From contig CM059432.1 of assembly GCA_030390025.1 (NCBI GenBank), positions 67,086,001 to 67,150,000 of the forward strand: 64,000 nucleotides of DNA, written 5' to 3'. Below the pieces are notes generated by a model. The model saw only the letters and a list, made by a program, of their open reading frames with translations. It was not told where the DNA came from and ran no database searches. A program made the translations under genes and the position numbers. The DNA is from Squalus acanthias. Taxonomy: Eukaryota. Of the stretch, positions 2,886-58,700 are shown piece after piece. Position 1 is the first letter of the stretch. Each line of letters begins with the position of its first letter.

Positions 2886-2944
2886 TCTCGAATAGCTATT
2901 TTGTCAGAATGTCTGGAAGATACAGAGGACATGCTCTGAGACAT
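2886..2944 (-). CDS. RB1CC1: RB1CC1 coding exon (59 nt) leading into the Claw domain; the gene continues left of the window
   Basis: catttttcag|ATG TCT CAG AGC ATG TCC TCT GTA TCT TCC AGA CAT TCT GAC AAA ATA GCT ATT CGA GA|gtaagt = MSQSMSSVSSRHSDKIAIR(D), versus human MSQSMSSVSSRHSEKIAIRD. Confidence 0.96.
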
Positions 2945-3765: not shown

Positions 3766-6700
3766 TAGTAAAATAATAAATTCAAAGATCAATTAGTTTT
3801 CTAGAAAGTATAACCAGCTTCATTACATGTTGCAATGTGCATTTTTCAAAAAATACTTGGCCAAATCTAAAATTCCCCACATTAAAACATCTGTTTCACA
3901 TGCTGAATTTTAAGCTCAAATTCCTTTGTCCCTTTCTTTCACTACTATTGTGATGTAGCTCAGATTTCTTATCTCTGCAGTTATCTTTCACCAGATTTTT
4001 TTATGGGGTCTTTCACTCATTGGAGTTGCTGGCATGTTAGCGAGATAGGATGAGGAAATCTGATGGAAAACAGTGGAGCAACTGGAAACAAAAGAAAAAC
4101 AAAAGTGGGGAAAAAGAAAATGGATCTTCTAGAATTTTGCTCTCCAAGTCTCAGGAGGGGAGGGTGTCACTCTCTTTCACAGGGTTCCTCTCAACATCTA
4201 TCTCTCAAGGTCTCTTATCAAGGATAAACTGTTTGTGTTTAATGTTGCAATTTTACAGTAATTTTTTTTATATTGGCTAGAAACAGTCCACAGATATGTA
4301 TTACATACTTGCTGCACTATTAGACAAATGCTACCAACTGGAAACAGGCAGCCTCAGAACCAGTAGTTTCAAAGTACAAAACATGGAAATAAAGTATGAC
4401 AGAGATAAATCTATACATGTTCTTTCATAAAAAGGAAGTGCAATATTTGGTGTTCTGATGTATTTTGACAGCAAACTATCAGGGAAGGCATCTGAGTGCA
4501 GCCCAGGCCCAAGGAAGGTAAATAAACCTTAAAACATGAATTCTCCCAGAGATTGCTTATTGAGCTGACCAACAGGAAGTGCACACAAGAGCATTGGCAG
4601 ATTTCTTATTCTGCCTCATGGTTATCAAACAGTAGGCAGCAAAAGGAGACATTAAATTGAAGTGGGAGGTTTAAGTATTCCTTTAGAATTAAAAATTGAA
4701 CAATTGCACATAGCAATCAATTTTAGATTGTTGTGTTCAATTCCAGATATCATTTTCTTTGTTCACTATGGTTTTGCATTCTGTAGTACAGAAGCCTGAA
4801 ATGTGTACATTACTCTCAACACTACCAATGAAAACGGTTTATAAAAATCATTCATCAAAAATCAACTATGAAGTACAAAAATCCAGTACTGCTTTTGTGG
4901 TACAAACTATTGGATTTATTTTGCATGACAATTAACATGATTATTAATTATGGACCTTAGGACAGTGCTGGGGACTGTCAAGAGTTCAAAATGTATCCAC
5001 AACTTTTTGCCATCTTCATTTGTAGGAGAAAATGACAAAATTCAAATCAGGATGCAGAAAACTAGAGTTCACATGTATAAACATTCTGCTGACTACCCAT
5101 ACTGGTAAACAAAATACAACTCTTGGAAAAATGCTTGAAGAATCTTGTCCATAAACCAATTTCAAATCTGATATACAAGTGACATGCTAACCTAAAGCTG
5201 ATTTACAATCAATCTTTGCCACCACTCACTACAAGAGTTACACGTGTGGCTTTCACATCAGTGTAACAAATACTCCAATATGTAAGGATTATAATTTAAA
5301 CCAAAATCCATCTAAAAAAATAACCAGAAAATACTAATTCTGCCAGTCACAGACAAGAGTCTTTTCAAATAATATTACATGCTCCTTTCAGGTATTTTCA
5401 GTTTTCTCAATGTTTGAACATTTTCATCAGTGAATTAAGAGACATAATTTGTAAAATGGTTCAATAAAACAGGGTTTTTGGTTACAAAACAAGAGTTAAT
5501 CAGCATTATAACACTTTGGACAAAACAGTCACAAAGACTCAACTCCATGCATTTTTGAACCATATTGTTCGTAATGATTTTTGGTTCAGGGATAGAGCAA
5601 CAATTTTTCTTTTAAAAAAATGGAAAGGTTCACATTTGGTCAAAAATCAACTACTGATATAGAAAATAAGAAAACTGGAAATCCTAAATACATATAATAA
5701 AAAATTCAGAACAAACCATACAAGGGAGATATAAACATTACGTAGTAAAACATGCCAGACACTACAAACATGCAGCACTCTTTGAAGTCAATGTCAAAAA
5801 AGAACCATTTGGAACATCAAATGTGAATTTTTCAGAAAATTCTTTAAAGCTCTTTGTTGAAAAGTTGTTCCCTCATTCAGTAATCAAGGGTGCTCATCAA
5901 AAATATGAAAAGCACAAAGAAAACAAGTTGTTGCACAAGTAAAATAGCTCCTGAAGATTACGGTGCCTGCCATGCTTCTATTTTGACACCAGCCCCTTAT
6001 GAAGAGTGTTCTTAATGAGAAATATAGACCTCTTGTTATTGTAAAAAAAATTCAAATCAACTATTTCCAATTATTTTCATAGTAACATTCCTCGCATAGA
6101 CTGTTAAAAACAGTTCTAAGGGTTAGGAGTTTTTCCAGTCATGGGCTAGCTACAGTTAACCAGTAATCACAACTATGTTTTTAGTTTAGACAAAGTAAGC
6201 ACAGAATGGTTAGCAGAATTAAATATGCTGCACTGAAGTTTAGAACGTTATGGCCTTTGAGTTACTTAGTAGCACTCATTTCCTTTGGGCGTTAAAATTA
6301 CAGTATGCAAAAACAAGTCATTCATAATTGCTGCACAATAACAACTTGTGATTTGGCATTAAAAGAATTGCTTCAATGGCCTGAGATACTTTGAGAAACC
6401 TGTTTCAATATTAGTACTCCAAACGTAATATCACGATTATTAATTTTAATGTACAATGAATATACTGCTCCAGTATTATTCTACTTTCATTGTATAAATG
6501 TGCACTAGCTTCATATGGACTGCATTAATTTATTTCATTAAATAGTGCACCTATCTTCCAAGCTGGAAGTTCCTCAGTTATTTGCCAGCTTACGTACTCC
6601 CTTTCTGGACATTTTCGAAGAGACCAAAACAACTTGAGTAATTACATGCCTGTGGTTTGGAGCAAAAAGATTCTGAAAAAAGGGGACAAAATGACAGAAT

Positions 6701-7179: not shown

Positions 7180-7227
7180 CAATCTTTGATTTAAACGTTT
7201 ATTCTCCTCTTCTTTCATTTGTAATGT
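7180..7227 (-). CDS. RB1CC1: RB1CC1 small coding exon (48 nt)
   Basis: ttgcttgtag|ACA TTA CAA ATG AAA GAA GAG GAG AAT AAA CGT TTA AAT CAA AGA TTG|gtatgt = TLQMKEEENKRLNQRL, versus human TLQLKEEENKRLNQRL. Confidence 0.95.
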
Positions 7228-15805: not shown

Positions 15806-15857
15806 TCTTTCTAAAATCATAATCCTATGTTTTTCCTCAGACATATGGATGGTTTCA
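15806..15857 (-). CDS. RB1CC1: RB1CC1 small coding exon (52 nt)
   Basis: tttattacag|T GAA ACC ATC CAT ATG TCT GAG GAA AAA CAT AGG ATT ATG ATT TTA GAA AGA|gtaagt = (R)ETIHMSEEKHRIMILER, versus human ENIHMLSEEKQRIMLLER. Phases fit both neighbours. Confidence 0.93.
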
Positions 15858-22068: not shown

Positions 22069-22324
22069 CGTACAGTCGTGGTGCTTGCCTCCATTGCGGA
22101 GTCTATTCTTCCATCCTCCATTACTGCAGTAACAGATACAAGTCTTTCCGAGTCAAATGGAATGTCAGGCCCAGAAGCAGCAGAAGCCTCAGCTCCAGAA
22201 GGTCCAGGTGATGAAAAGGCAGAACAAACCAGTAGATTACTTTGTAACCTGTTGAGTTCCTCATCAAGCTTTTTCTTTTCTTGTAGCAAAGTAGCTCTGT
22301 CTGCAGAGAGGGTTTCTATCAAAA
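22069..22324 (-). CDS. RB1CC1: RB1CC1 coding exon (256 nt)
   Basis: tgtgtgttcag|TT TTG ATA GAA ... ACT GTA CG|gtaagt. LIETLSADRATLLQEKKKLDEELNRL...DGRIDSAMEAS matches human LIESLSEDRARLLEEKKKLEEEV...EGRVDSAMETS. Phase 1 in, phase 2 out. Confidence 0.95.
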
Positions 22325-25859: not shown

Positions 25860-26101
25860 TTTGTTATGTTGGTTGAGGGATAAATATTGGGCCAGGACAC
25901 CGGGGAGAACTCCCCTGCTCTTCTTCCAATAGTGCTGTGGGATCTTTTACGTCCACCTGAGCGCGCAGACGGGACCTCGGTTTAATGTCTCATCTGAAAG
26001 ACGGCACCTCCGACAGTGCAGCACTCTCTCAGCACTGCCCCTCCTACAGTGCAGCGCTCCCTCAGTACTGCCCCTCCGACAGTATGGCACTCCCTCAGTA
26101 C
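25860..26101 (-). mobile_element. DeuSINE-like fragment with an internal 33-bp tandem repeat (about 3 copies)
   Basis: gttgagggataaatattgggccaggacaccggggagaactcccctgctcttc followed by cctccgacagtgcagcactctctcagcactgcc-type units at 26007, 26040 and 26073. Confidence 0.85.
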
Positions 26102-26419
26102 GGAGGCCCAAAAAATTAATTGCTGTAAGTAAATAGTGCCCAAGGTCAGAGTTTAATTGCTGTTTGATAATAGAAGTATGCAGATTCAAAGGTGGTTGTA
26201 AATTTCTGGCTCTATGTCAGATAAAAACAGCGCAAATGGCTACCTATCTTTTTCTTTCTTTAAAATAATTTCAACACTCTTTAATATGACAGATACAAAA
26301 GTTTTTGGACAGATGGAGAGACAGACCAAGATTTCTTTAATCCAAACTTCAAATATTTAGAGAGACATTAAAACAACAAAGCCTTCAAATTAGTTTCTGG
26401 TTAATGTGGCCCAGCTCAC

Positions 26420-26529
26420 CTCTGTCCTTTTCTTGTTGCTGGGTAAGCTTTTTTCAGTTTATCATTCAGCTCATTTATAATTTGTTCTTTCTTCATTTTT
26501 TCCCTAGTTAGAACCGTGTTGAAGTTAGT
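26420..26529 (-). CDS. RB1CC1: RB1CC1 coding exon (110 nt as written; apparent 1-nt insertion in an A6 run)
   Basis: tgtttttcag|ACT AAC TTC AAC ACG GTT CTA ACT AGG GAA AAA ATG = TNFNTVLTREKMKKEQIINELNDKLK, matching human TNFNTVLTREKMRKENIINDLSDKLK. Donor GACAGAG|gtgagc. The distal part (KLTQQQEKDR) is in a different frame; see findings. Confidence 0.93.
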
Positions 26530-26759
26530 CTGAAAAACAAATCATTTGAGAATGTAATCCAAGATTGATAAAAATCAGCACACTGGAAATAATGTTCCCT
26601 GCACACTGCACTATGTTCTGTGCAGCCTGTTTCTTTCAATTTAAAATTTCTTTAAATTTCTGCGCATATGCAGTATTTCCAATGTAAAAGCTTGTGAGCA
26701 GCCTGGGTGGGAACTTGCAATTACTGCAAGGGTAGGCACTTGTGTGTTTTAGCCAATGT

Positions 26760-27746
26760 TTGTGAAGTTTCTGTTAATGTGCTGTCAAACATTGAAATCT
26801 TTATTTTCAACACTTTGCCTTCTTGGACAGATTTGCGTGCACCTTTGGAAGTGGCTTAGTGAGTTGCAGTGAATGGTGAGACAGAACGCTACCCTCCGCA
26901 ATGCTGACGAGTGTGAAACGAATGGCTTGGGCATTGTAGGGGTGCTTTCTGGTGTTGGCGTGGGGTGGTGCCAACCTGGCGCATCATGCGGCAGCCAGGG
27001 TGTACAGCGTCAAGTGAAGTAAATGTGCCCATGGTGAGGCCATCCCTGGCGTCCCGGGCAGCAATGTGGTTGGGTGCTGATGCCCTGTGTAGCATCAGTT
27101 TATTGCGGAGAAGGTTGGGGTTATTGTTGGTGCTGCTGGTATGCCTGATGCTGCTGGTGTTGGGGCATATCGTGGTGGGATTCTGAGGACCAAGGTGAGA
27201 GAGTATAAACTGCACCGATGCTGATGGAATAGATGGCAAGTGAACTTGAGATGACAGAAGCAACCGGTCAATGGTAAGAGAGGTTGTTCCAATGAGGTGA
27301 CATTGGATAGAGAGTTTGCTCCAAACACTTGCAACCTGCATAAAGCTCAATCTGTCTTCCAAATGCAGTAAGCAATAGCTTCTGAGCTTGGAAAGTAAAC
27401 AGCTGAGAGATGGGAGCTTTTATAGCACATTTGCAGCTGTCATGTAATGAGATGATTCCATGACCATTCAACTCCCACCTTGCTTACCTGACATGATCCC
27501 AGAGCAGCATAGACCCCGTGGGCGACCTGGTAAACTCTGAAAGTGAGCTGAAAATAGTTCTTAACAAGGTCAGAATGACCTGAATTGCCTCCCCCGCCGC
27601 TGCATGTCAGGTCTGCTCAGCGATGAAAGACCAGACATTTTGGAAAGGCACGTGGCGGCAGGTTCCCAACCCGCTGTCAAAAAAAATCATTTTCCCACCC
27701 AACCCACCACCGATCGCGCGTGGTGACCCCCCACAAAATTCCCCCC
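26760..27746 (-). mobile_element. Probable Harbinger-type transposon deletion derivative
   Basis: Ends in AAAATTCCCCCC|AGT like the other TIR copies; GC-richer interior; minus-strand remnant ..HIAARDARDGLTMGTF.. resembles a Harbinger transposase C-terminus. Left boundary uncertain. Confidence 0.45.
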
Positions 27747-37074: not shown

Positions 37075-37240
37075 CTGCTGTTCAGCTATCAGTGATGTTT
37101 TAAGGCTTTGAAGTTCTTCGTTCCTTTTTTCTAGTTGATCTATTAAATTGGCCTTCTCTTCTTGAAACTTCCCTGTAAGGTCAGCAATAGCACTTGGTGG
37201 AGGACTCCAAATCACTGGTGCAGATGAAAGTGGAACTTCC
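37075..37240 (-). CDS. RB1CC1: RB1CC1 coding exon (166 nt)
   Basis: ttttaacacag|G GAA GTT ... GAA CAG CAG|gtagat. Translates (R)EVPLSSAPVIWSPPPSAIADLTGKFQEEKANLIDQLEKRNEELQSLKTSLIAEQQ, matching human ...QEEKAKFLEQLE...NEEMQNVRTSLIAEQQ. Phase 2 in, phase 0 out. Confidence 0.95.
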
Positions 37241-41647: not shown

Positions 41648-41713
41648 GGTCAGCTCGACCAATCAGAATAACTGCTTCAGGGTCAGCTCGACCAATCAGA
41701 GTAACTGCTTCAG
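41648..41713 (+). repeat. 33-bp tandem duplication, each unit containing a CCAAT box
   Basis: ggtcagctcgaccaatcagaataactgcttcag / ggtcagctcgaccaatcagagtaactgcttcag (1 mismatch). Confidence 0.9.
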
Positions 41714-42134
41714 GCCAGAAGAAAGCCAGCCCAACCAATAACGAGCAGCTCCAACAGGGCTCGTCATGGCAAAGGGCAAGCAGCATCTAACCGCGTTCTA
41801 GATGGACAGCAGGGGTGGGTCTGGCACGTCTCGTCGTGAGTGTCAATATTCTCAGCAATCACTCTAATGAAGTTAAAGTACCACTTGCAACTGCTGGACA
41901 AAAACCTAGAAGCTACTAAGGTGTGCTGTGTTTGATAAATTCATCCAGAATTCCAAACTTTGGTGAAAGAGAAAGATTACAAAGTTTCACACTGAATAGT
42001 GGTAGATATTTGTTTACTAAATATACACGTGCAATATATTCACTTGTATTGTGTGCAAGGCGTTTTCTACTAAAATTAGTGCATGTGGTTAAAATGGTAC
42101 TGCCTGTGGCTAGACAGCGATTTCTACTGATGGG

Positions 42135-44800: not shown

Positions 44801-46339
44801 TGGCCGAAGTCAGTAAGACTAAATTACACCTGCGCACCTCAGCCTAATTATCTGCTGCCTTCTCATTCTACGTGTGACCTTTATTACCAGTCGGTCATCA
44901 AGAGTGCATTGTTCCACATCTGGAATATTGTCTGTTTGCACCCCTTCATCTCTCTACCCCTTGAACCTGCATGTTAAACACGAAGACCAACAGGTTATTG
45001 ACAGAACTGAGCAGTCCAACAACCAACGTATGCCTAATTCTTCACCATTTTTTACAGGTAGCCATGAGTAGTTACTACAAAATGTTTGTATTTGATTCTA
45101 AGGATAAGCCTTGGTTCATTGGTAGCACTCTTGTCTGAGTCAAAGTTGAAAGTTCAAGCCCCACTCAAGACACGAGCACATAATCTAGGTGGCACTTCAG
45201 ATGCCGTTTTTTGGATGAGATGTTAAACCGAGGCCCTGTCTACCCCTCAGGCAGAAGTAAAAGATCCCACAGCACTATTCGAAGAAAAGCAGGGGATGTG
45301 TTTGTCCTGGCCAACATTTATCCCTTAACTAACATCTAAAAACAGATTATCCTAGCATTTACTTCAACAACAACTTGTATTTATATAGTGCCTTCAACGT
45401 AGTAAAACGTCCCAAGGCACTTCACAGGAGCATCATCAACCAAAGTCTGACATCGAGCCACACAAGACGACATTAGGGCAGAAGAGGTAGGCTTTAAGGA
45501 GCATCATAAAGGAGCAGAGAGAGGCGGAGAGGTTTGGGGAGGGAATTCCAGAGCTTAGGGCCTTGGCATCAAAAGCACGGCCACCAATGGTGGAGCAATT
45601 AAAATCAGGGATGCTCAAGAGGCCAGAATTGGAGAAGCGCAGCTATCTGAGAGTTGTAGGGCTGGAGGAGGTTACAAAGATAGGGAGGGGTGAGGTCATG
45701 GATGGATTTGTTGGACCATGCTTTGTGCAAATTGGCTGTCATGGTATCCTTATATTACAACAGTGAATACACTTCAAAAATGTACTTCATTGGCTGTAAA
45801 GTGCTTTGGGATGCCCTGAGATCATGGGCACTATATAAATGCAATTCTTTCTTTAAGGAAAAAAAAAGCAGAAAGCAATATAACAAGGCAAGATTCCCAG
45901 TAGGCCATCAGCTAGCTAATAAAAAGATGCACCAAGATCAAGGTTTGTACAGAGTTATTTATATGGTTGATGTGAGAATCATTACAAAAGGCTAACTATA
46001 CTTAAGGAGCTGGAAAGTATCTGTACTCATACACATGGTGCCTGCAGGTCACTGAGAAATAAAAGATCAAAGGGTTCCAAGATAGAACTTTCAAGTTCAC
46101 ATGCCTTGGATATAAAAAGTCAAGCAAATAATAAAATGAAAAGAAGTCAGTATCTGAGAGAAGAGCATTAATAATTGGAGAGAAAATAATTTGAAAGAAA
46201 CTAGTTTGTGCTTTTCCCATCGAGTCTGTGGTATGTAAAGAATGAGAAAAAACAAAATGAGAAAATAAATCTTAGGATGTCTCAAGACTTATCACTTCTA
46301 CTTAATTGAAGACTTATAAAGACATAGTACTTCACATAC

Positions 46340-48249
46340 CTCTCTGCTCTACTTTGCTCTTTAAGTTGACTTTCAAGTTGTTGATTTTTTATTTGCAATT
46401 CTTGCTCGAGTGCTCGTCTTTTTCGTTCACAATCCTCATGCATTTTATTTCTAACAGACTCCTCTCCTTCCTGGCTTAATGTGTTGAGTAGTTGTTCCTT
46501 CTCCTCCTGAAGACCACGAATAGTAGCTTTATATTTTGTTTCTATTTCTAAGACAATTCTTTCTTTTTCAGAATCCATTTCGTCCTTTTGTATTTCTATG
46601 GTTTTCAAATATTCTTCCAACTTAGTACTGAGCTCTTCAACTCGTCCCTTTAATGTTATTTCAACATCAAGTGCTTGCTGCCTCATTGTGTCCAATTTAC
46701 TTAGCTCTGCTCGAAGGAGGGTCATCTCCTCTTCGTGCCTGTCCACCAACTCAGAAATGCACTGTTTTTTTTCCATGGTCATTAATTCCCTTTCTTCTGC
46801 AAGTCCTACCTCATAGTCCTCATTTTTTAGCTGAAGCTGGTGTTTCAAGTCAGTTATCTCTTCGCTGTATTTCTCCTTTTCTTTCATGACCTGACATTTT
46901 GTAATCTCTTGTTGGACTTGGTTCTCTTTTAAAAGCTGCTTTATTTCCTCAGTTTCGGCTTCCTTCAAAGCCAATTCAACTTCCAGCTTGCACCTAAAGT
47001 CAGAAAGCTCAGATACTTTAAATTTAAGTTCATTCAGTTCTTGTTCTTGCTCCTGGAGTTTAAGTGTAAGGGACTGTTGCACATGTTCTAACCTTGCTTC
47101 ATTTTCCCTCAAGATTTTTTCTTGCTGACCATCGTGATCAGTCATCAGCCTCTCCATTTCCTGCTGATGCCTGGCTTGCAGGTTATCTTCAAGATCCTTC
47201 AGATGACTTTGTTCAAGATTCTGAAGCTCTTCCCTTAAGCACCCCATCTTTTGATCAGCTTGTACATTAAGTCTGTTTAATTCTTCCAATAAACTCTCTT
47301 TGGATTGTCTGAGTTCTTGGATTTGTGTCTCCTGTTTTTTTCTCTCTTCCACCAAGTCATGTATTTCTTTATCTTTACTCATTTGTAAACACAAGAGGGT
47401 TTCATTTTTAGTCCTAGTCACAGCAATCTCATGATCTTTCTGTTTTATACTATCTTCAAGCTCCAACAAATCCCTTTTCAGCTTTTCTACATTTTTCTGA
47501 GTAGCCTTCGCCTCAACATCCCATTTGTCCATTCGGTCTTCATAATCCTTGCTTAAAATTTCTAATTTTTGTTGATAATTTTCCTTTGCTCCTGCTTCAA
47601 CTCTACATTTTACTGTTTCAATTATGCTTCTTAATTCTTCACTTACATTTCTCATGGAACTATTAAAATCACATTGCTCTTTCTGGACAAGTGCTCTGAA
47701 ATGGTTAAGGTCTTTCTTAATGTTTATAAAATGTGACTGAGACATTTCAGTGATAAACCTATATTTTTCAATATGCATCTTTAGAGTTGTAACTTCTTTA
47801 GAATCCACCTTTTCACCACAAGTTGTATCCTGCATACGTCTATTATCGATAGCATTAATAACTGAAGAATATAGTGATTCAAGCATCATTTCAGGACTTT
47901 GTGGATCACTGATTAAGTTGGGTGAGGTTAAGTTCTCCTCAATCACAAATTCATTTACTGCTGACACAAAATCAGACTCTGGACTCTCTGCTAATGAGTC
48001 CATATCTATAGATCCTTGTTTGAGAACTTGTTCTAAATTTGGATGAGGAATAGTCTCAAAATCGAATGTATGGGCATCAATACTATCAGGAGACAGCTCT
48101 TCTAATGAGGCAGGAACGTTAGCAGGTGGACAGATTGGTCCCTGAAGGCTAAGAGTGGACGTGGCTCTAGAAGAGGTAGTTTTAGTTCCGGTTGTGCTTT
48201 CCAGCCTGTGTGGTGTTGGCGTCGTTAATGTAGGTTGATCAAGAGACAC
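46340..48249 (-). CDS. RB1CC1: RB1CC1/FIP200 giant internal coding exon (1910 nt): LIR region plus most of the coiled coil
   Basis: ORF 46282-48255 contains LEELSPDSIDAHTFDFETIPHPN, DSLAESPESDFVSAVNEFVIEENL, ESLYSSVINAID and RCKLEVELALKEAETEEIK, near-identical to vertebrate FIP200. Acceptor ttgcag|GTG (phase 0); donor GAG AG|gtatgt (phase 2). LIR core FDFETI at 48066-48049. Confidence 0.97.
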
Positions 48250-50459
48250 CTGCAAGCATAAGCAGCACTGATGTTAAAACACAATTAAAAAAAAGTCAGT
48301 GAAAAAAAACTGTAAAAATACATTAGAAGTTTAACACCAACTGTTTGTAAAATAGCTTCAATTTTATATTTTGGGAAAATCTAGATATATGTTCAGTACT
48401 GTACTATAGCTATCCAATTACACAAATCTTCCCAACTGGTGGGATGACCAAATAACCTTGTGAAAATTCAACCACCAAAACACTAACCTTTCAGTTCAAA
48501 CCAATTCTATGTTGAAACAGACTAAATCCATGATTAATAAAATGTATATAATGTAGCTTGAGAGAAGTATCAACATCCTTATTTTTAATTGAAACATACT
48601 GTAATTCAAAGCGCAACTCTAAAACTAACCATTTTTAAACTTACAAAAACATCTGAAGACTATATACTCTATGATTGCAATTTTTGTTAATTTTAGTTAA
48701 AATTTCTTGCAGTATGGGATTCCAGTATTTTGAAATAAAATAAGTCTCTGGTATAATTTAACATTTGTTTCCTAGTGTAATGCATTCACAACATTTTATT
48801 AAAATAAGTTACCTTTACGGAAATTGTTCAGCACTTTTTCTGGCTTAGGAGGGACAAAAGTCAGGCATACATTTTCATTTATCAAGTGATCTGGTGAGAT
48901 GCTCTGACACAATTTATGAGCAAACCCCTATCTCACCACCCTGAACAAGTTTTCGCCCCTCCTCCTCAGGAAAGATTTCCCCGTCACATGAAATGAGGAA
49001 AAAGTGCCATCAAAAATACGTGCTAGATGATGGTTGGAAGATAGCAAGTCCAAGTAGGCAGCAATTACATTCGGTACTGAAACCCTCAAGAAGCAGTAGA
49101 TTTGGCAGCATTTGATTGAAATGAACAAAGAGCGAGCTCCACACAATACCCGCACTGCTCGGACATGAACCTTGTGCAAGTTTACATGCACCCAACCCCC
49201 AGTGCTGTCGTTGTTTTCAGCTTCCTCACCCCCGTCGAGCAACAACCCCTCCCACAGCCATGACCCTCCCTGGGCGAGCAGGAATCATGAACCTCCAATT
49301 CTTATGTGGCGTAAGCTGTGGATTGCATTCAACCTCCCACCCCTACTGAAATTCCTACACATTACCGCTAGCTGTACTATCCTCCCACTAACTCCCCGCC
49401 CCACCTCCTTTAGAGAGGAGTACTTCAATCATTCAAGTAGCTATGGATTATGTTTGCATAGATATGCATGTATCAATTGTGCTGGTCACTTGATGGTTAA
49501 TTAGAATGTTTGTTCTTTGTCTTCTTTAAAATACTACTGCTCTCAGTCGACGACGCCAAGTCCACTGCTCTGGTATAGGATCATATGAATATGATTGATG
49601 CATTCTACAGGTACTACAAAGTTTTAATAAGGGACTTCCTGCTCCATGGTACCAAGGAGTTCAAATGATCAGAGGTAGGATAGAAACAGATATTTTGTGT
49701 AGAAGCTCCACCATGAAACCATGAATGGGGATACTGGGCTACTGGACCGCACTCTCAAGTTGAAAATATTCACTCAAAGTTTCACAAGTAGCAGACTATA
49801 TTGAGAATTTTGTTCCAGACCTGAGAACTAGAGATTCCAGACAGCAGGGCCATTAGTAAATAGGAAAATGAAAAGTCAACAGTTCATAAGGGTACAAAAG
49901 TCAAGACTAAAAGCACACCAGTATGCCAATGTTATTTAAAAAAAATGTATATTGAAAAAAAAAGGTTATTGTTGAGGCAGTTTATAAAGTCTGGGGGAAA
50001 AAAGCTTCCTTTATATGAGAATACAATATGACTAACATTGCAATGAATTAAGTAGTCTCAAGCGAGGCACAAAAACAGAGTGGCGAGATTAGGTCCTGGG
50101 GTAAGGGGCAGAGCGTAGAGACGGGCAGAATTCAATGAGCGGGACAGGGTGGGGTCCAGAGCACATGGAGCAGGACAGGGAGGGGGCGGGGAGAGGAGAG
50201 CAGGATGGGGCGGGGCACAGAGCGCGGGGTGCCGGCCCGGGTGAGGACAGAGTGGAGAATGTCATCGTGAAATATCATTTTCCAGACTTCAGGAATAGTC
50301 TGGAAACTGACTGGCTCAGTGGGGAGGTAGTGGCAGTCAATAAAATAATCGATACATTCAGAAACCAAACAGAAGTGCAGGTGTGAGGAACATACCCCAA
50401 ATTTGAGGAATGGGAATGTAATGGTGCAAGTATACTTGGGAACAAAGGGTTAACTGCAT

Positions 50460-51900
50460 ACTAAGGAAAGCAAAGTGGAAGCATGAGGGGAAAAAAAATC
50501 AAAAAACAGCAAAAGTATTTCACAAGTTAATCAGTAAAAAGAGAAAGTGATGTAGGATCCCTGAGAGGAGAGTACTGTGAATTTGTAGAATATGATCAAA
50601 ACATGGCAGAGGTATTTAATAAGTATTCACATTGGTCTTTACTACAGTGAAGGATATCGGAGAGAAGCTGAATCCTGAAGAGGTTGAGCGCAAGATGAGC
50701 GATATTATGATGGCTAAAAGGAAAATTTTAGATAAGTTAGTTAGGCTAAAGGAAGACACGCCCCAGGGCCGAATAGTTGGGTGTGGTTGTGTGCCAGAGG
50801 ACTGGAGAATGGCAAAAATTTTTTAAAAGGAAATCAGAGCTAATCTGGTTAATTACAGACTAGTTAGCTTAATGACCTGTGGTAGGGATTTCTTTTTATA
50901 TATAGAGACTTTAATGATGAAATTACATGCATCTAGATAAAGAGCAAAGTGTTAGAAATAGCACACATGTAAAAAAATGATCAGGCTTGACAAACCTCAG
51001 AATTCTTTGAGGACGTAACAGACATGGTAGATGGGGAAAATACAGTGGATATAGTGTAAATGGACTTTAGGAAAGCCTTTGTTTGACAAGGTACACACAG
51101 GGGTTTATTGAGTAAGATCAAGGAGTATGGAATTAGGGGAAGGATAGCAAACTAGATGTGGTTAGAAAGGAGTAAACAGACAGGAGTGAAAGACTGTTCT
51201 TCCAGAGTGGTTGGAAGTAGGTGGTGGTGTCCCACAGGATTCCATTCTGAGGCCAGTTCTTTACACTGTGTACATCAATGATTCAGATATGGGTCTAGAA
51301 GTGGTGCTATAAATTGTAGATTACACCAAAATAGGAGGTATAGTTTATTATTTGAAAGACCAAAGGAAGTTGCAAAGGGATATTGATAAAATGGGGGAAA
51401 TGGACTAAAAAGTGGCAGATAGAATGCAATGGCAGTGAGGTGATAGATTTTTGTAAAAAATAATAGCAATTATACTCAATGAAAGTAGGCTTGAGGAAGA
51501 GCAGAGGGATTGGGGGGGGGTTACAGGTTCACAGGACATTAAAGGCAACACCTCTGTTTGATAAGGCCATCAAAAAAAACTACTGGAATTCTAGGTTTTA
51601 TCATAAAGGGTATTGAATATAAATGGTAAGAGGTAATGATGAGCCTATATAAAGCGCAAGACCTCAGTTACAGTGCTGTGCAGTATTGGGTTTCACATTA
51701 TAGGAAGCATATTGAAGCGTTAGATAAGGTACAACGCAGATTCACAAGGATGTTGCCAACCTGAAAAAATGGGGCTTTATTTCATTAGAACTACCCAGAT
51801 TACAGGGTGATATGATGAAAGTGTTTAAAATGATGAAAGGATGGAACGGGATAGATAGCAGAATTTTTCCAGTAGGAGAGGGGTCGAGAAAAAGGGGCCA
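50460..51900 (+). mobile_element. Old, degenerate CR1 LINE (RT region)
   Basis: gtgccagaggactggaga (VPEDWR), ggactttaggaaagccttt, ggtgtcccacagg and agattcacaaggatgttgcc remnants with many stops. Confidence 0.8.
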
Positions 51901-55721: not shown

Positions 55722-58700
55722 AGTCATAACGGCACAGAAGGAGGCCATTCGGCCCATTGATTCCATGCCAGCTCTCTGTCGAGCAATCCAGTCAGTCCCA
55801 TTCCCGCGCTCTATCCCCGTAGCCCTGCAAGTTGATTTCCCTCAAGTGCCTATCCAGTCTCCACTTGAAAACATTGAGTGTCTCCGTTTCCACCACTTCC
55901 GTCGGCAGCGAGTTCCAGGTCCTCACCACTCGCTGCGTAAATTTTTTTTCCCCTCACATCCCCCCTGTATCTCTTGCCCAAAACCTTAAATCTGTGTCTC
56001 CTTGTCCTTGTACCATCAGCTAGTGGGAACAGCCTATCCCCGTCTAGCCTATCCAAACCAGTCATAATCTTGTACACCTCGATCAAATCACCCCTCAACC
56101 TCCTTTGCTCTAATGAAAACAAATCCAGCTTCTCCAACCTGTTCTTGTAGCCAAGATCCCCCATCCTCGGAACCATTCTGGTAAATCTCCTCTGCACCCT
56201 CTCAAGGGCCTTCACATCCTTCCTAAAGTATGGTGACCAGAACTGGACGCAATACTCCAGTTGTGGCCTAACCAGTGCTTATAAAGGTTCAGCATAACTT
56301 CTCTACTTTTGTACTCAATACCTCTATTTATGAAGCCCAAGATCCCATATGCTTTGCTAACCACGCTCAATATGTCCTGCCACCTTCAGGGACCTATGCA
56401 CATTAACTCCCACGTCCCTCTGTCCCTGCACACTCTTTAAAACTGTGCCATTAAGTGTATATTGCCTCTCCCTGTTCCTTCTGCCAAAATGCATCACCTC
56501 ATACTTCTCTGTATTAAATGCCATCTGCCACTTGTCTGCCGATTCTGCTAGCCTTTCTATGTCCTGTTGCAGTTGATTGGTATCAGCACTGTTTGCCACA
56601 CCCCCAAGTTTGGTGTCATCGGCAAATTTCGAAATTCTACTCTGTATTCCAATATCCAGGTCATTTATATATATCAAAAAAAGCAGTGGCCCCAGCACTG
56701 ACCCTTGGGGAACACCACTGTCTACCATCCTCAGTCTGAAAAACAGCCATTTACCACAACTCGCTGTTTTCTGTCCTTAAGCCAATTCCTTATCCAAGCT
56801 GTCACTGACCCACCTATTCCATGAGCTTCAATTTTGTTAACCAGCCTTCTATGTGGTACTTTGTCAAACGCCTTCCAAAAATCCACGTAGACAACATCCA
56901 TTGCATTCCCTTCATCAATCCTCTCGGTTACTTTCTCAAAAAATTCAATTAGGTTAGTCAAACACGATCTGCCTTTTACAAATCCGTGCTGGCTCTCCTT
57001 AATTAGCTTAAACCTCTCCAAATGCCCGTTAATTTTTTCCTTGCTTATTGTTTCTAAAACTTTACCCACCACTGATGTTAAACTGATCGGCCTGTAGTTA
57101 CTAGGATTGTCCTTACACCCTTTCTTGAACAATGGTGTCACATTTGCCACTTTCCAATCCTCAGGCACCTCCCCCGCATCTAGGGAAGATTGGAAAATTC
57201 TGGCAAGCCCTTCCGCTATCTCCTCCCCCAATTCCCTTAGCAACCTGGGATGCAAGCCATCTGGACCAGGCGACTTATCCACTCGAAGCATACCCAGCCT
57301 TTCTAGTACATCCTGTCTATCAATTTTCACCCCTTCCATTGCTTACATAGAAACATAGAAACATAGAAACTAGGAGCAGGAGTAGGCCATTCGGCCCGTC
57401 AAGCCTGCTCCACCATTCAATACGATCATGGCTGATCATCCAAATCCAGTACCCTGTCCCTGCTTTCCTCACACAGAATCCCCACAGTACAGATAGAGGC
57501 CATCTCGGCCCATCGAGCCTGCACCGACACATATCCCACCCTATCCCCGTAACCCCACGTATTTAATTCCCCCTAACATATCCCATCCTATCCCTGTAAC
57601 CTCACATATTTAATCCCCCCCTAACACTAAGGGTCAATTTATCATAGCCAAATCAACCTAACCCGCACATTTTTGGACTGTGGGAGGAAACCGGAGCACC
57701 CGGAGGAAACCCACGCAGACACGGGGAGAATGTGCAAACTCCACACAGACAGTCGCCCGAGGCCAGATTCGAACCCGGGTCCCTGGCGCTGTGAGGCACC
57801 AGTGCTAACCACTATGCCACCGTGTTGCCCACTACCTTTTCTACTTCTACTGATATTTTGTCAGCATCCACCTCCTTAGTACACACAGATACAAAGTACT
57901 CATTGAGTATTCTAACCTTGCCCTGCGCCTCTAAGCATATATCACCTTCTTTGTCCCTAATAGGCCCCTCCCCGCCTCTTACTACCCACTTACTGTTTAC
58001 ATGCCAGTAGTAGATTTTTGGGTTCCCTTTTATTTTAACCGCCATTCTACTCTCATATTCTCTCTTTGCCAATCTTATTTTCATCTTCACTTCCCCTCTC
58101 AACTGATTGTATTTGGTCTGGTTCTCCCTTGAAGAATTTACCTGACATTCATCATACACCCTCTTTTTTTTGTTTCATCATCTTCTCTATCTCCATCATC
58201 CAAGGAGCCCTTGCTTTGGTTCCTTTACCCTTCCCTCTTGTTGGAATGTACCTAGTCTGTTTAGAAGTTCCACTCTAGATTGTTCCTTGCTCCTCTCCAT
58301 TACTAATCTAAATCTTCTGATACGATGATCATTCGTACCCAAGTGTTCTCCCACAGACACTTGGTCGACTTGGCCCACCTGATTTCCCAGCACCAGATCC
58401 AGCAATGCCTCCTTCCTATTTGGGCTGAGAACATACTGGTCAAGGAAATTCTCCTGAACACATTTCAGAAATTCCTCCCCCTCCTTTCCCTTTACCCTAG
58501 CATTATCCCATCGATATTTGGGTAATTAAAGTCCCCCAATATCACCACTCTATAGCTCTTGCATATCTCTGCGATTTCCCTGCAGTTTTGCTCCTCTACC
58601 TACCTCTCACTATTTGGAGGCCTATAGAATACCCCAATAGCGTGATCATACCCTTTTTGATCTTCTACTCTAGCCAAATGGATTCTGTCCTTGTCCCCTC

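What the first reader, a model, noticed from the sequence alone, without database searches (positions are those of the whole stretch)
26420..26529. Apparent +1 frameshift in an RB1CC1/FIP200 coding exon (A6 homopolymer at 26449-26454)
Seen: the minus strand reads AAA CTG AAA AAA GCT TAC CCA GCA ACA AGA AAA GGA CAG AG|gt, 110 nt in total, ending in phase 2. The next exon (22324) needs phase 1. Removing one A gives CTG AAA AAG CTT ACC CAG CAA CAA GAA AAG GAC AGA G| = LKKLTQQQEKDR, matching human LKSTMQQQERDK and restoring phase. As written, translation stops at TGA 22266-22264 and loses the C-terminal Claw domain. Known: FIP200 is essential for autophagy and the Claw binds cargo receptors. The downstream exons are intact and conserved. 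The nearest alternative AGs (26 nt into this exon, 9 nt into the next) do not rescue the frame. Inference: most likely a homopolymer assembly error; otherwise a loss-of-function allele or, least likely, polymerase/ribosome slippage on the A run.
Basis: partly seen in the sequence, partly recalled or inferred. Interest (0 to 1): 0.75.

Follow-up and report, generated by a model that had tools for sequence, protein, structure and literature searches.

The report
Spurious extra A in shark FIP200
The assembled genome of this shark has one extra A that breaks its only copy of the essential autophagy gene RB1CC1/FIP200, but DNA from two other samples and a spliced RNA assembly lack that base, so it is likely an assembly error and the gene is ordinary.

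Summary
The extra A is in the assembly as described. Exon 26529-26420 is 110 nt, the frame shifts inside the A6 run at 26449-26454, and translation stops at TGA 22266-22264 after residue 1388.

It is not a trait of the species. All 4 of 4 runs laid across the site (two DNA samples and one probable RNA sample, three studies) have five bases. The RNA contig has a 109-nt exon spliced to 22324. With five bases the 22 exons give 1598 residues, 95.2% identical to sawshark RB1CC1, with no other lesion. Recoding is therefore unnecessary.

The laid contigs differ from the assembled haplotype elsewhere, so they do not test the assembled animal. A private heterozygous loss-of-function allele stays possible (about 9%); mouse heterozygotes are normal. 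One other one-base frameshift turned up in 85 kb of large cadherin exons, a background at which an error in a gene this size is unremarkable.

Verdict: likely a homopolymer consensus error (about 90%), low interest.

The parts
26449..26454 (-). A6 run in the assembly; five bases in all four runs laid across it. The surplus base causes the frameshift.
   Evidence: (table 4: 1 letter left out at 26449, depth_with equal to depth in X1, X3, X5, X6)
26420..26529 (-). RB1CC1 coding exon 15 of 22 in my model: 110 nt as assembled, 109 nt in the RNA contig; single copy in the genome
22069..22324 (-). Next coding exon (256 nt, phase-1 entry); the RNA contig runs straight from 26420 into its first base
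   Evidence: (loose end of X6 at 26420)
22264..22266 (-). TGA reached in the shifted frame, after residue 1388; six exon junctions lie downstream
37075..37240 (-). Preceding coding exon (166 nt, ends in phase 0), intact
   Evidence: spliced to the large exon in X6 and X15
46340..48249 (-). Large coiled-coil exon (1910 nt), intact, 91% identical to sawshark RB1CC1
15806..15857 (-). Downstream coding exon (52 nt), intact
7180..7227 (-). Downstream coding exon (48 nt), intact
2886..2944 (-). Downstream coding exon (59 nt), intact; three more exons carrying most of the ATG11/Claw domain lie beyond the window start

Best explanation
The sixth A is likely a base-calling or consensus error of the assembly in a short homopolymer, and the species' RB1CC1 exon has five A and encodes ordinary full-length FIP200. 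Shown: five bases in three samples, canonical splicing of a 109-nt exon, a 1598-residue open frame with five bases, no other lesion in 22 exons, and one gene copy. Inferred: that the assembled animal itself also has five bases, and that the error arose from homopolymer miscounting.
For: (1) All 4 of 4 runs laid across the site show one base fewer at 26449, with no other difference along 405-base DNA contigs that include both flanking introns (X1, X3 of sample S1; X5 of S2) and in a 4963-nt spliced contig (X6, S3). (2) Contig coordinates give the exon 109 nt, and its loose end is the start of the exon at 22324. (3) With five bases the CDS is 4797 nt and 1598 aa, 95.2% identical to P0006, 93.7% to P0007 and 65.8% to a primate record. 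(4) 18 of 18 cartilaginous-fish records read KLT(Q/E)QQEKDRVLIE. 115 of 120 orthologue records align without a gap across the site; of the 5 others, 4 are short records with only weak matches there and 1 has a two-residue gap. (5) The exon is single copy, and homozygous loss is embryonic lethal in mouse (PMC2064504, passages). (6) Background: 1 of 27 large non-clustered cadherin exons (84,938 nt) also carries a one-base frameshift. That is about 0.06 such lesions per CDS of this size (95% range 0.001-0.31). (7) No served run holds the window's full word set; the best share is 0.82. (8) Homopolymers are a known weak point of long reads (PMC12212083, passages).
Against: The laid contigs do not represent the assembled haplotype. 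Over about 6 kb at 45860-51900 both DNA samples differ from the window at 11 listed substitutions, 2 one-base indels and a 40-nt stretch, and three substitutions are shared by all four runs. The two one-base indels are not in long runs. Of 46 runs of five or more bases inside X3 contigs, only this one is listed with a length difference; the substitution pair at 50818/50824 can also be read as two run-length changes. So the assembly shows no general excess of homopolymer errors here. Contigs drop minor alleles and cannot show absence of T6. The cadherin frameshift used for calibration was not checked against reads. In polished human assemblies about 78% of frameshifted genes were supported as real variants (PMC12212083, passage), although that figure covers all genes, dispensable ones included. 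The sequencing technology of this assembly is unknown to me.
Confidence: 0.9

Rival explanations
1. The sixth A is a real, private, heterozygous loss-of-function allele on the haplotype that was assembled. Replication slippage lengthened A5 to A6. The mRNA would likely be removed by nonsense-mediated decay, and the other allele would supply FIP200.
For: The assembled haplotype carries other private differences from all laid samples. Heterozygous FIP200-null mice are normal and fertile (PMC2064504, passage), so such an allele can be carried. The stop lies 553 nt before the last junction. A/T runs are slippage-prone (established knowledge). The neighbouring 6 kb show no excess of run-length errors.
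Against: Absent from three other samples. By my rough mutation-selection estimate (inference, not a tool result) a recessive-lethal null should sit on about 1 in 1000 haplotypes or fewer. The background lesion rate is about 0.06 per gene of this size, with a wide range.
Confidence: 0.09
2. The gene is fixed as A6 in this species and full-length FIP200 is made by transcriptional slippage or ribosomal frameshifting.
For: Only the assembled letters and the intact downstream exons.
Against: Genomic DNA of two samples has T5 and spliced RNA has A5, so no recoding is needed. The required shift is +1, and the zero-frame codons CTG AAA AAA GCT do not form an X XXY YYZ heptamer (read from the sequence). 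No orthologue carries the shifted peptide.
Confidence: 0.005
3. The A6 copy is a decaying duplicate or is rescued by an alternative splice site, and the T5 contigs come from another copy.
For: Some distant AG or GT sites would restore the frame arithmetically. A short extra contig of about 40 bases raises depth at about 26475-26515 in the DNA runs (table 2).
Against: One match only for the exon in the genome. The T5 contigs carry this locus's own introns without a mismatch, and the RNA contig uses the canonical donor and acceptor. All other 21 exons are intact.
Confidence: 0.005

Closest known systems
RB1CC1/FIP200 of Pristiophorus japonicus (P0006, isoform X1) and Heptranchias perlo (P0007)
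   Same: 95.2% and 93.7% identity over the whole protein when the run has five bases. The 37 residues across the site are identical to P0006. ATG17-like and ATG11 Pfam domains were found in both orthologues.
   Different: Only the assembled sixth A, which no orthologue and no laid run shows.
False frameshifts from homopolymer errors in long-read assemblies (PMC12212083; passages read)
   Same: One-base indel in a short homopolymer inside an otherwise intact conserved gene, absent from short-read contigs.
   Different: Not proven for this animal, because its own reads were not available. That paper also finds most frameshifts in polished human assemblies to be real.
C-terminally truncated FIP200 (delta 1369-1594) in mouse fibroblasts (PMC8257712; passages read)
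   Same: The as-assembled product would end native sequence near orthologue residue 1354 and lose the receptor-binding segment (1352-1441) and the Claw (1494-1594).
   Different: That was an engineered cDNA. A genomic allele here would likely be degraded by nonsense-mediated decay (inferred).

Membership tests
RB1CC1/FIP200 (ATG11 family) | Full-length orthology to annotated RB1CC1 proteins | tested here: met
   All 22 exons map in order; 95.2% identity to P0006
RB1CC1/FIP200 (ATG11 family) | C-terminal ATG11/Claw domain encoded | tested here: met
   PF10377 at P0006 1479-1587. The matching exons align at 92-100% and 17 of 18 residues. Pfam was run on the orthologues, not on the window's joined protein. 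A genome search with PF10377 found nothing, as did its controls.
RB1CC1/FIP200 (ATG11 family) | N-terminal ATG17-like scaffold region encoded | tested here: met
   PF04108 at P0006 122-539; the matching exons are present upstream of the window
Assembly homopolymer error | One-base indel inside a homopolymer | tested here: met
Assembly homopolymer error | Absent from independent DNA and RNA of the species | tested here: met
   4 of 4 runs, three samples, three studies; contigs only
Assembly homopolymer error | Absent from raw reads of the assembled individual | not testable with these tools
   All 24 listed runs are contigs; the laid ones differ from the assembled haplotype
Programmed recoding (ribosomal frameshift or transcriptional slippage) | Frame break fixed in genomic DNA and conserved in relatives | tested here: not met
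   T5 in DNA of two samples; 18 of 18 cartilaginous-fish protein records continuous
Programmed recoding (ribosomal frameshift or transcriptional slippage) | Shift-prone signal matching the needed direction | tested here: not met
   The needed shift is +1 and there is no X XXY YYZ heptamer in the zero frame (sequence). Downstream RNA structure was not tested.
Processed or duplicated pseudogene | A second intact copy elsewhere, or accumulated lesions | tested here: not met
   Single copy; one lesion in 22 exons

The most novel reading that the evidence does not exclude
The animal that was sequenced is a natural heterozygous carrier of a FIP200 null allele (A5 to A6 slippage in a coding exon), the first such allele noted in a shark. 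It would show that one copy suffices in a wild cartilaginous fish, as it does in mouse.
Probability: 0.09. Interest if true: 0.2.

Novelty: not a real feature. Interest (0 to 1): 0.05.

Why it matters
Biologically it matters little: this shark makes ordinary FIP200. Practically, the reference breaks an essential single-copy autophagy gene, so automatic annotation would call it truncated or a pseudogene, and gene-loss surveys could be misled. A second one-base frameshift in a CELSR-type exon suggests that single-base lesions in this assembly should be checked against reads before they are interpreted.

Tried and rejected
- Recoding: rejected, because DNA and RNA both have five bases.
- Splice rescue: other AG and GT sites were enumerated, but the RNA contig uses the canonical ones.
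- Second gene copy: none found (only 40 of 260 candidates were scored, 1 of 1).
- Pfam: a scan of the two short exon peptides gave nothing useful. A genome search with PF10377 found nothing and its controls were also blank, so it says nothing.
- Error profile: I expected the second read lay to show an excess of homopolymer differences. It did not; the differences look like ordinary haplotype divergence.
- Depth: the site's contig has lower depth (10.4 in X3) than contigs of the large exon (about 18). I do not read this as heterozygosity, since a one-base bubble would not halve a 556-base contig and X5 is low there too (11.1 against 13-18).
- RNA status: no run is on record as RNA. X6 and X15 are taken as RNA because their contigs are spliced.
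- Orthologue count: a first motif-based count matched only 68 of 120 records because the pattern was too strict; it was replaced by alignment.
- Clustered protocadherin exons were left out of the error-rate estimate because they may be true pseudogenes.
- Literature: a search for RB1CC1, frameshift, slippage and shark (12 of 45 listed, listing only) showed no paper on recoding of this gene. A search on human constraint (listing only) gave nothing that I used.

Full report
Observation. The minus strand at 26529-26420 is a 110-nt exon between AG and GT, with six A at 26454-26449. Read from its phase-0 start it gives TNFNTVLTREKMKKEQIINELNDKLKKAYPATRKGQ. The next exon starts at 22324 and is open in the frame that needs a phase-1 entry. 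tblastn with two shark RB1CC1 proteins splits this exon into two frames at 26449/26453; both halves are 100% identical to P0006.

Gene and genome. The window lies at G000:C8:67086001-67150000 of a 3.7-Gb genome. A search with the large exon returned 651 proteins, of which 120 were listed, nearly all named RB1CC1. The best are from Pristiophorus japonicus (91%) and Heptranchias perlo (89%), so the organism is likely a shark near these (inference). Using 100 kb of flank on each side I mapped 22 coding exons from window coordinate 143055 to -38583, every intron GT-AG. As assembled the CDS is 4798 nt and stops at TGA 22266-22264 after residue 1388, 553 nt and six junctions before the end of the message. 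With one base of the run left out it is 4797 nt, has a single terminal stop, and gives 1598 residues. Identity is 95.2% to P0006, 93.7% to P0007, 80.1% to Callorhinchus and 65.8% to a primate record. The run is the only lesion. The exon matches one place in the genome. The lost part holds the ATG11/Claw domain (PF10377 at 1479-1587 of P0006). It also holds the receptor-binding segment 1352-1441 named in PMC8257712 (passages read).

Orthologues. 18 of 18 cartilaginous-fish records read KLT(Q/E)QQEKDRVLIE across the site. 115 of 120 listed records align there without a gap; four of the five exceptions are short records with only weak local matches and one has a two-residue gap. No orthologue has the shifted peptide.

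Reads at the site. Twenty-four public runs hold the stretch or part of it, all kept as contigs; the best share of words is 0.82. I laid 4 of the 24 on 26230-26780: X1 and X3 (sample S1), X5 (S2) and X6 (S3, RNA by guess). All four show one letter left out at 26449, with the whole depth at that place, and no other letter differences are listed. The three DNA contigs cover 26230-26635 with no mismatch, both introns included. The X6 contig is 4963 nt and covers only 26420-26532. Its loose end equals the first 30 bases of the exon at 22324, and its coordinates give this exon 109 nt, not 110. X6 and X15 also join the large exon to both neighbours. So the species has A5 in DNA and in spliced RNA, and no recoding or splice rescue is needed.

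What the reads do not show. I laid X3, X5, X6 and X15 on 45860-51900 to see the error profile. Both DNA samples differ from the window at 11 listed substitutions, two one-base indels (49802, 50878) and a 40-nt stretch at 50069. A third one-base insertion, listed at 50625 in a high-depth repeat, was not counted. Three substitutions (47132, 47133, 48229) are shared by all four runs. At 47132-47133 the window has Asp where the runs have Cys, as do 7 of 13 orthologues checked, the five closest included. The two counted indels are not in long runs. Of 46 runs of five or more bases inside X3 contigs only the one at 26449 is listed with a length change; the pair 50818/50824 may hide two more. This counts against a sloppy assembly and shows that the laid contigs are not the assembled haplotype. 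Contigs also drop minor alleles. The assembled animal's own genotype is therefore untested.

Calibration. To weigh error against private allele I searched the genome for cadherin repeats (150 of 1061 candidates scored) and fetched 27 large exons of non-clustered genes, 84,938 nt. One of the 27, a CELSR-type exon (L027), has a one-base deletion near 4034-4038 with 75-78% identity to a paralogue on both sides. That gives 1.2e-5 per base, or 0.056 per 4.8-kb CDS (95% range 0.0014-0.31). The RB1CC1 lesion itself was not counted. The L027 lesion was not checked with reads, and breaks near exon ends could be missed. Against this, homozygous FIP200 loss kills mouse embryos while heterozygotes are normal and fertile (PMC2064504, passages). 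By a rough mutation-selection argument (my inference) a null should sit on about 1 in 1000 haplotypes or fewer. The odds favour error by roughly ten to fifty to one. PMC12212083 (passages) names homopolymers as a weak point of long reads, but also reports that about 78% of frameshifted genes in human assemblies were supported as true variants. I keep 9% for a real allele. Clustered protocadherin exons (14 of 62 with short open frames, counted by hand) were left out because they may be pseudogenes.

How it most likely works. Shown: A5 in the species, canonical splicing, full-length frame, one copy. Inferred: the consensus overcounted a five-base run by one. If the allele were real instead, the stop position predicts nonsense-mediated decay and a silent carrier state.

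Known and novel. The gene is a plain RB1CC1 orthologue, and the frameshift fails the tests for programmed recoding and for a pseudogene. A paper search for RB1CC1 with frameshift, slippage and shark (12 of 45 listed, listing only) showed no report of recoding in this gene. Searches were seen as listings apart from the three papers cited; no supplements were read. Earlier notes of this scan hold nothing near this place or on this gene, and those listed did not change my reading.

Verdict. Observation confirmed. Likely assembly error 0.90, private heterozygous null 0.09, other 0.01. Interest 0.05.

Noticed in passing
L027, 4034-4038 of the minus strand (G000:C10:99288500-99296500): A CELSR-type cadherin exon has a one-base deletion; both halves are 75-78% identical to the paralogue in L031 and have no stops. 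It also starts at a clean acceptor in the middle of the first cadherin repeat, where the paralogues in L031 and L037 run on without an intron. Not checked with reads.
   Followed up: partly
G000:C3:196.6-198.7 Mb (L054-L066): 14 of 62 distinct clustered protocadherin exons listed have open frames under 780 aa. Several carry single one-base indels (L055, L056, L059, L060 in a T8 run, L061, L062, L064), one a 29-nt deletion (L065), two an in-frame stop (L054, L058). Pseudogenes or assembly errors; not resolved.
   Followed up: partly
window 47132-47133: Two adjacent bases differ from all four laid runs, giving Asp in the window where the runs and the five closest orthologues have Cys. Private allele or error.
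   Followed up: partly
window 50069/50070: Both DNA samples carry a 40-nt purine-rich stretch here that the window lacks.
   Followed up: no
window about 26475-26515: Depth in the three DNA runs, but not the RNA run, rises over about 40 bases inside the exon. This implies a short look-alike elsewhere in the genome; the genome search with the exon did not find it.
   Followed up: partly
L028 about 4305 to L029 about 144 (G000:C2:179.46-179.47 Mb): A FAT4-type first coding region is in two exons (748- and 999-residue open frames) separated by a GT-AG intron of about 5.8 kb. I recall this as one exon in human; not checked.
   Followed up: no
window 26007-26101, 41648-41714, 57529-57626: Short tandem repeats with 33-, 33- and 47-base units in introns; the introns are otherwise rich in decayed LINE fragments.
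   Followed up: no
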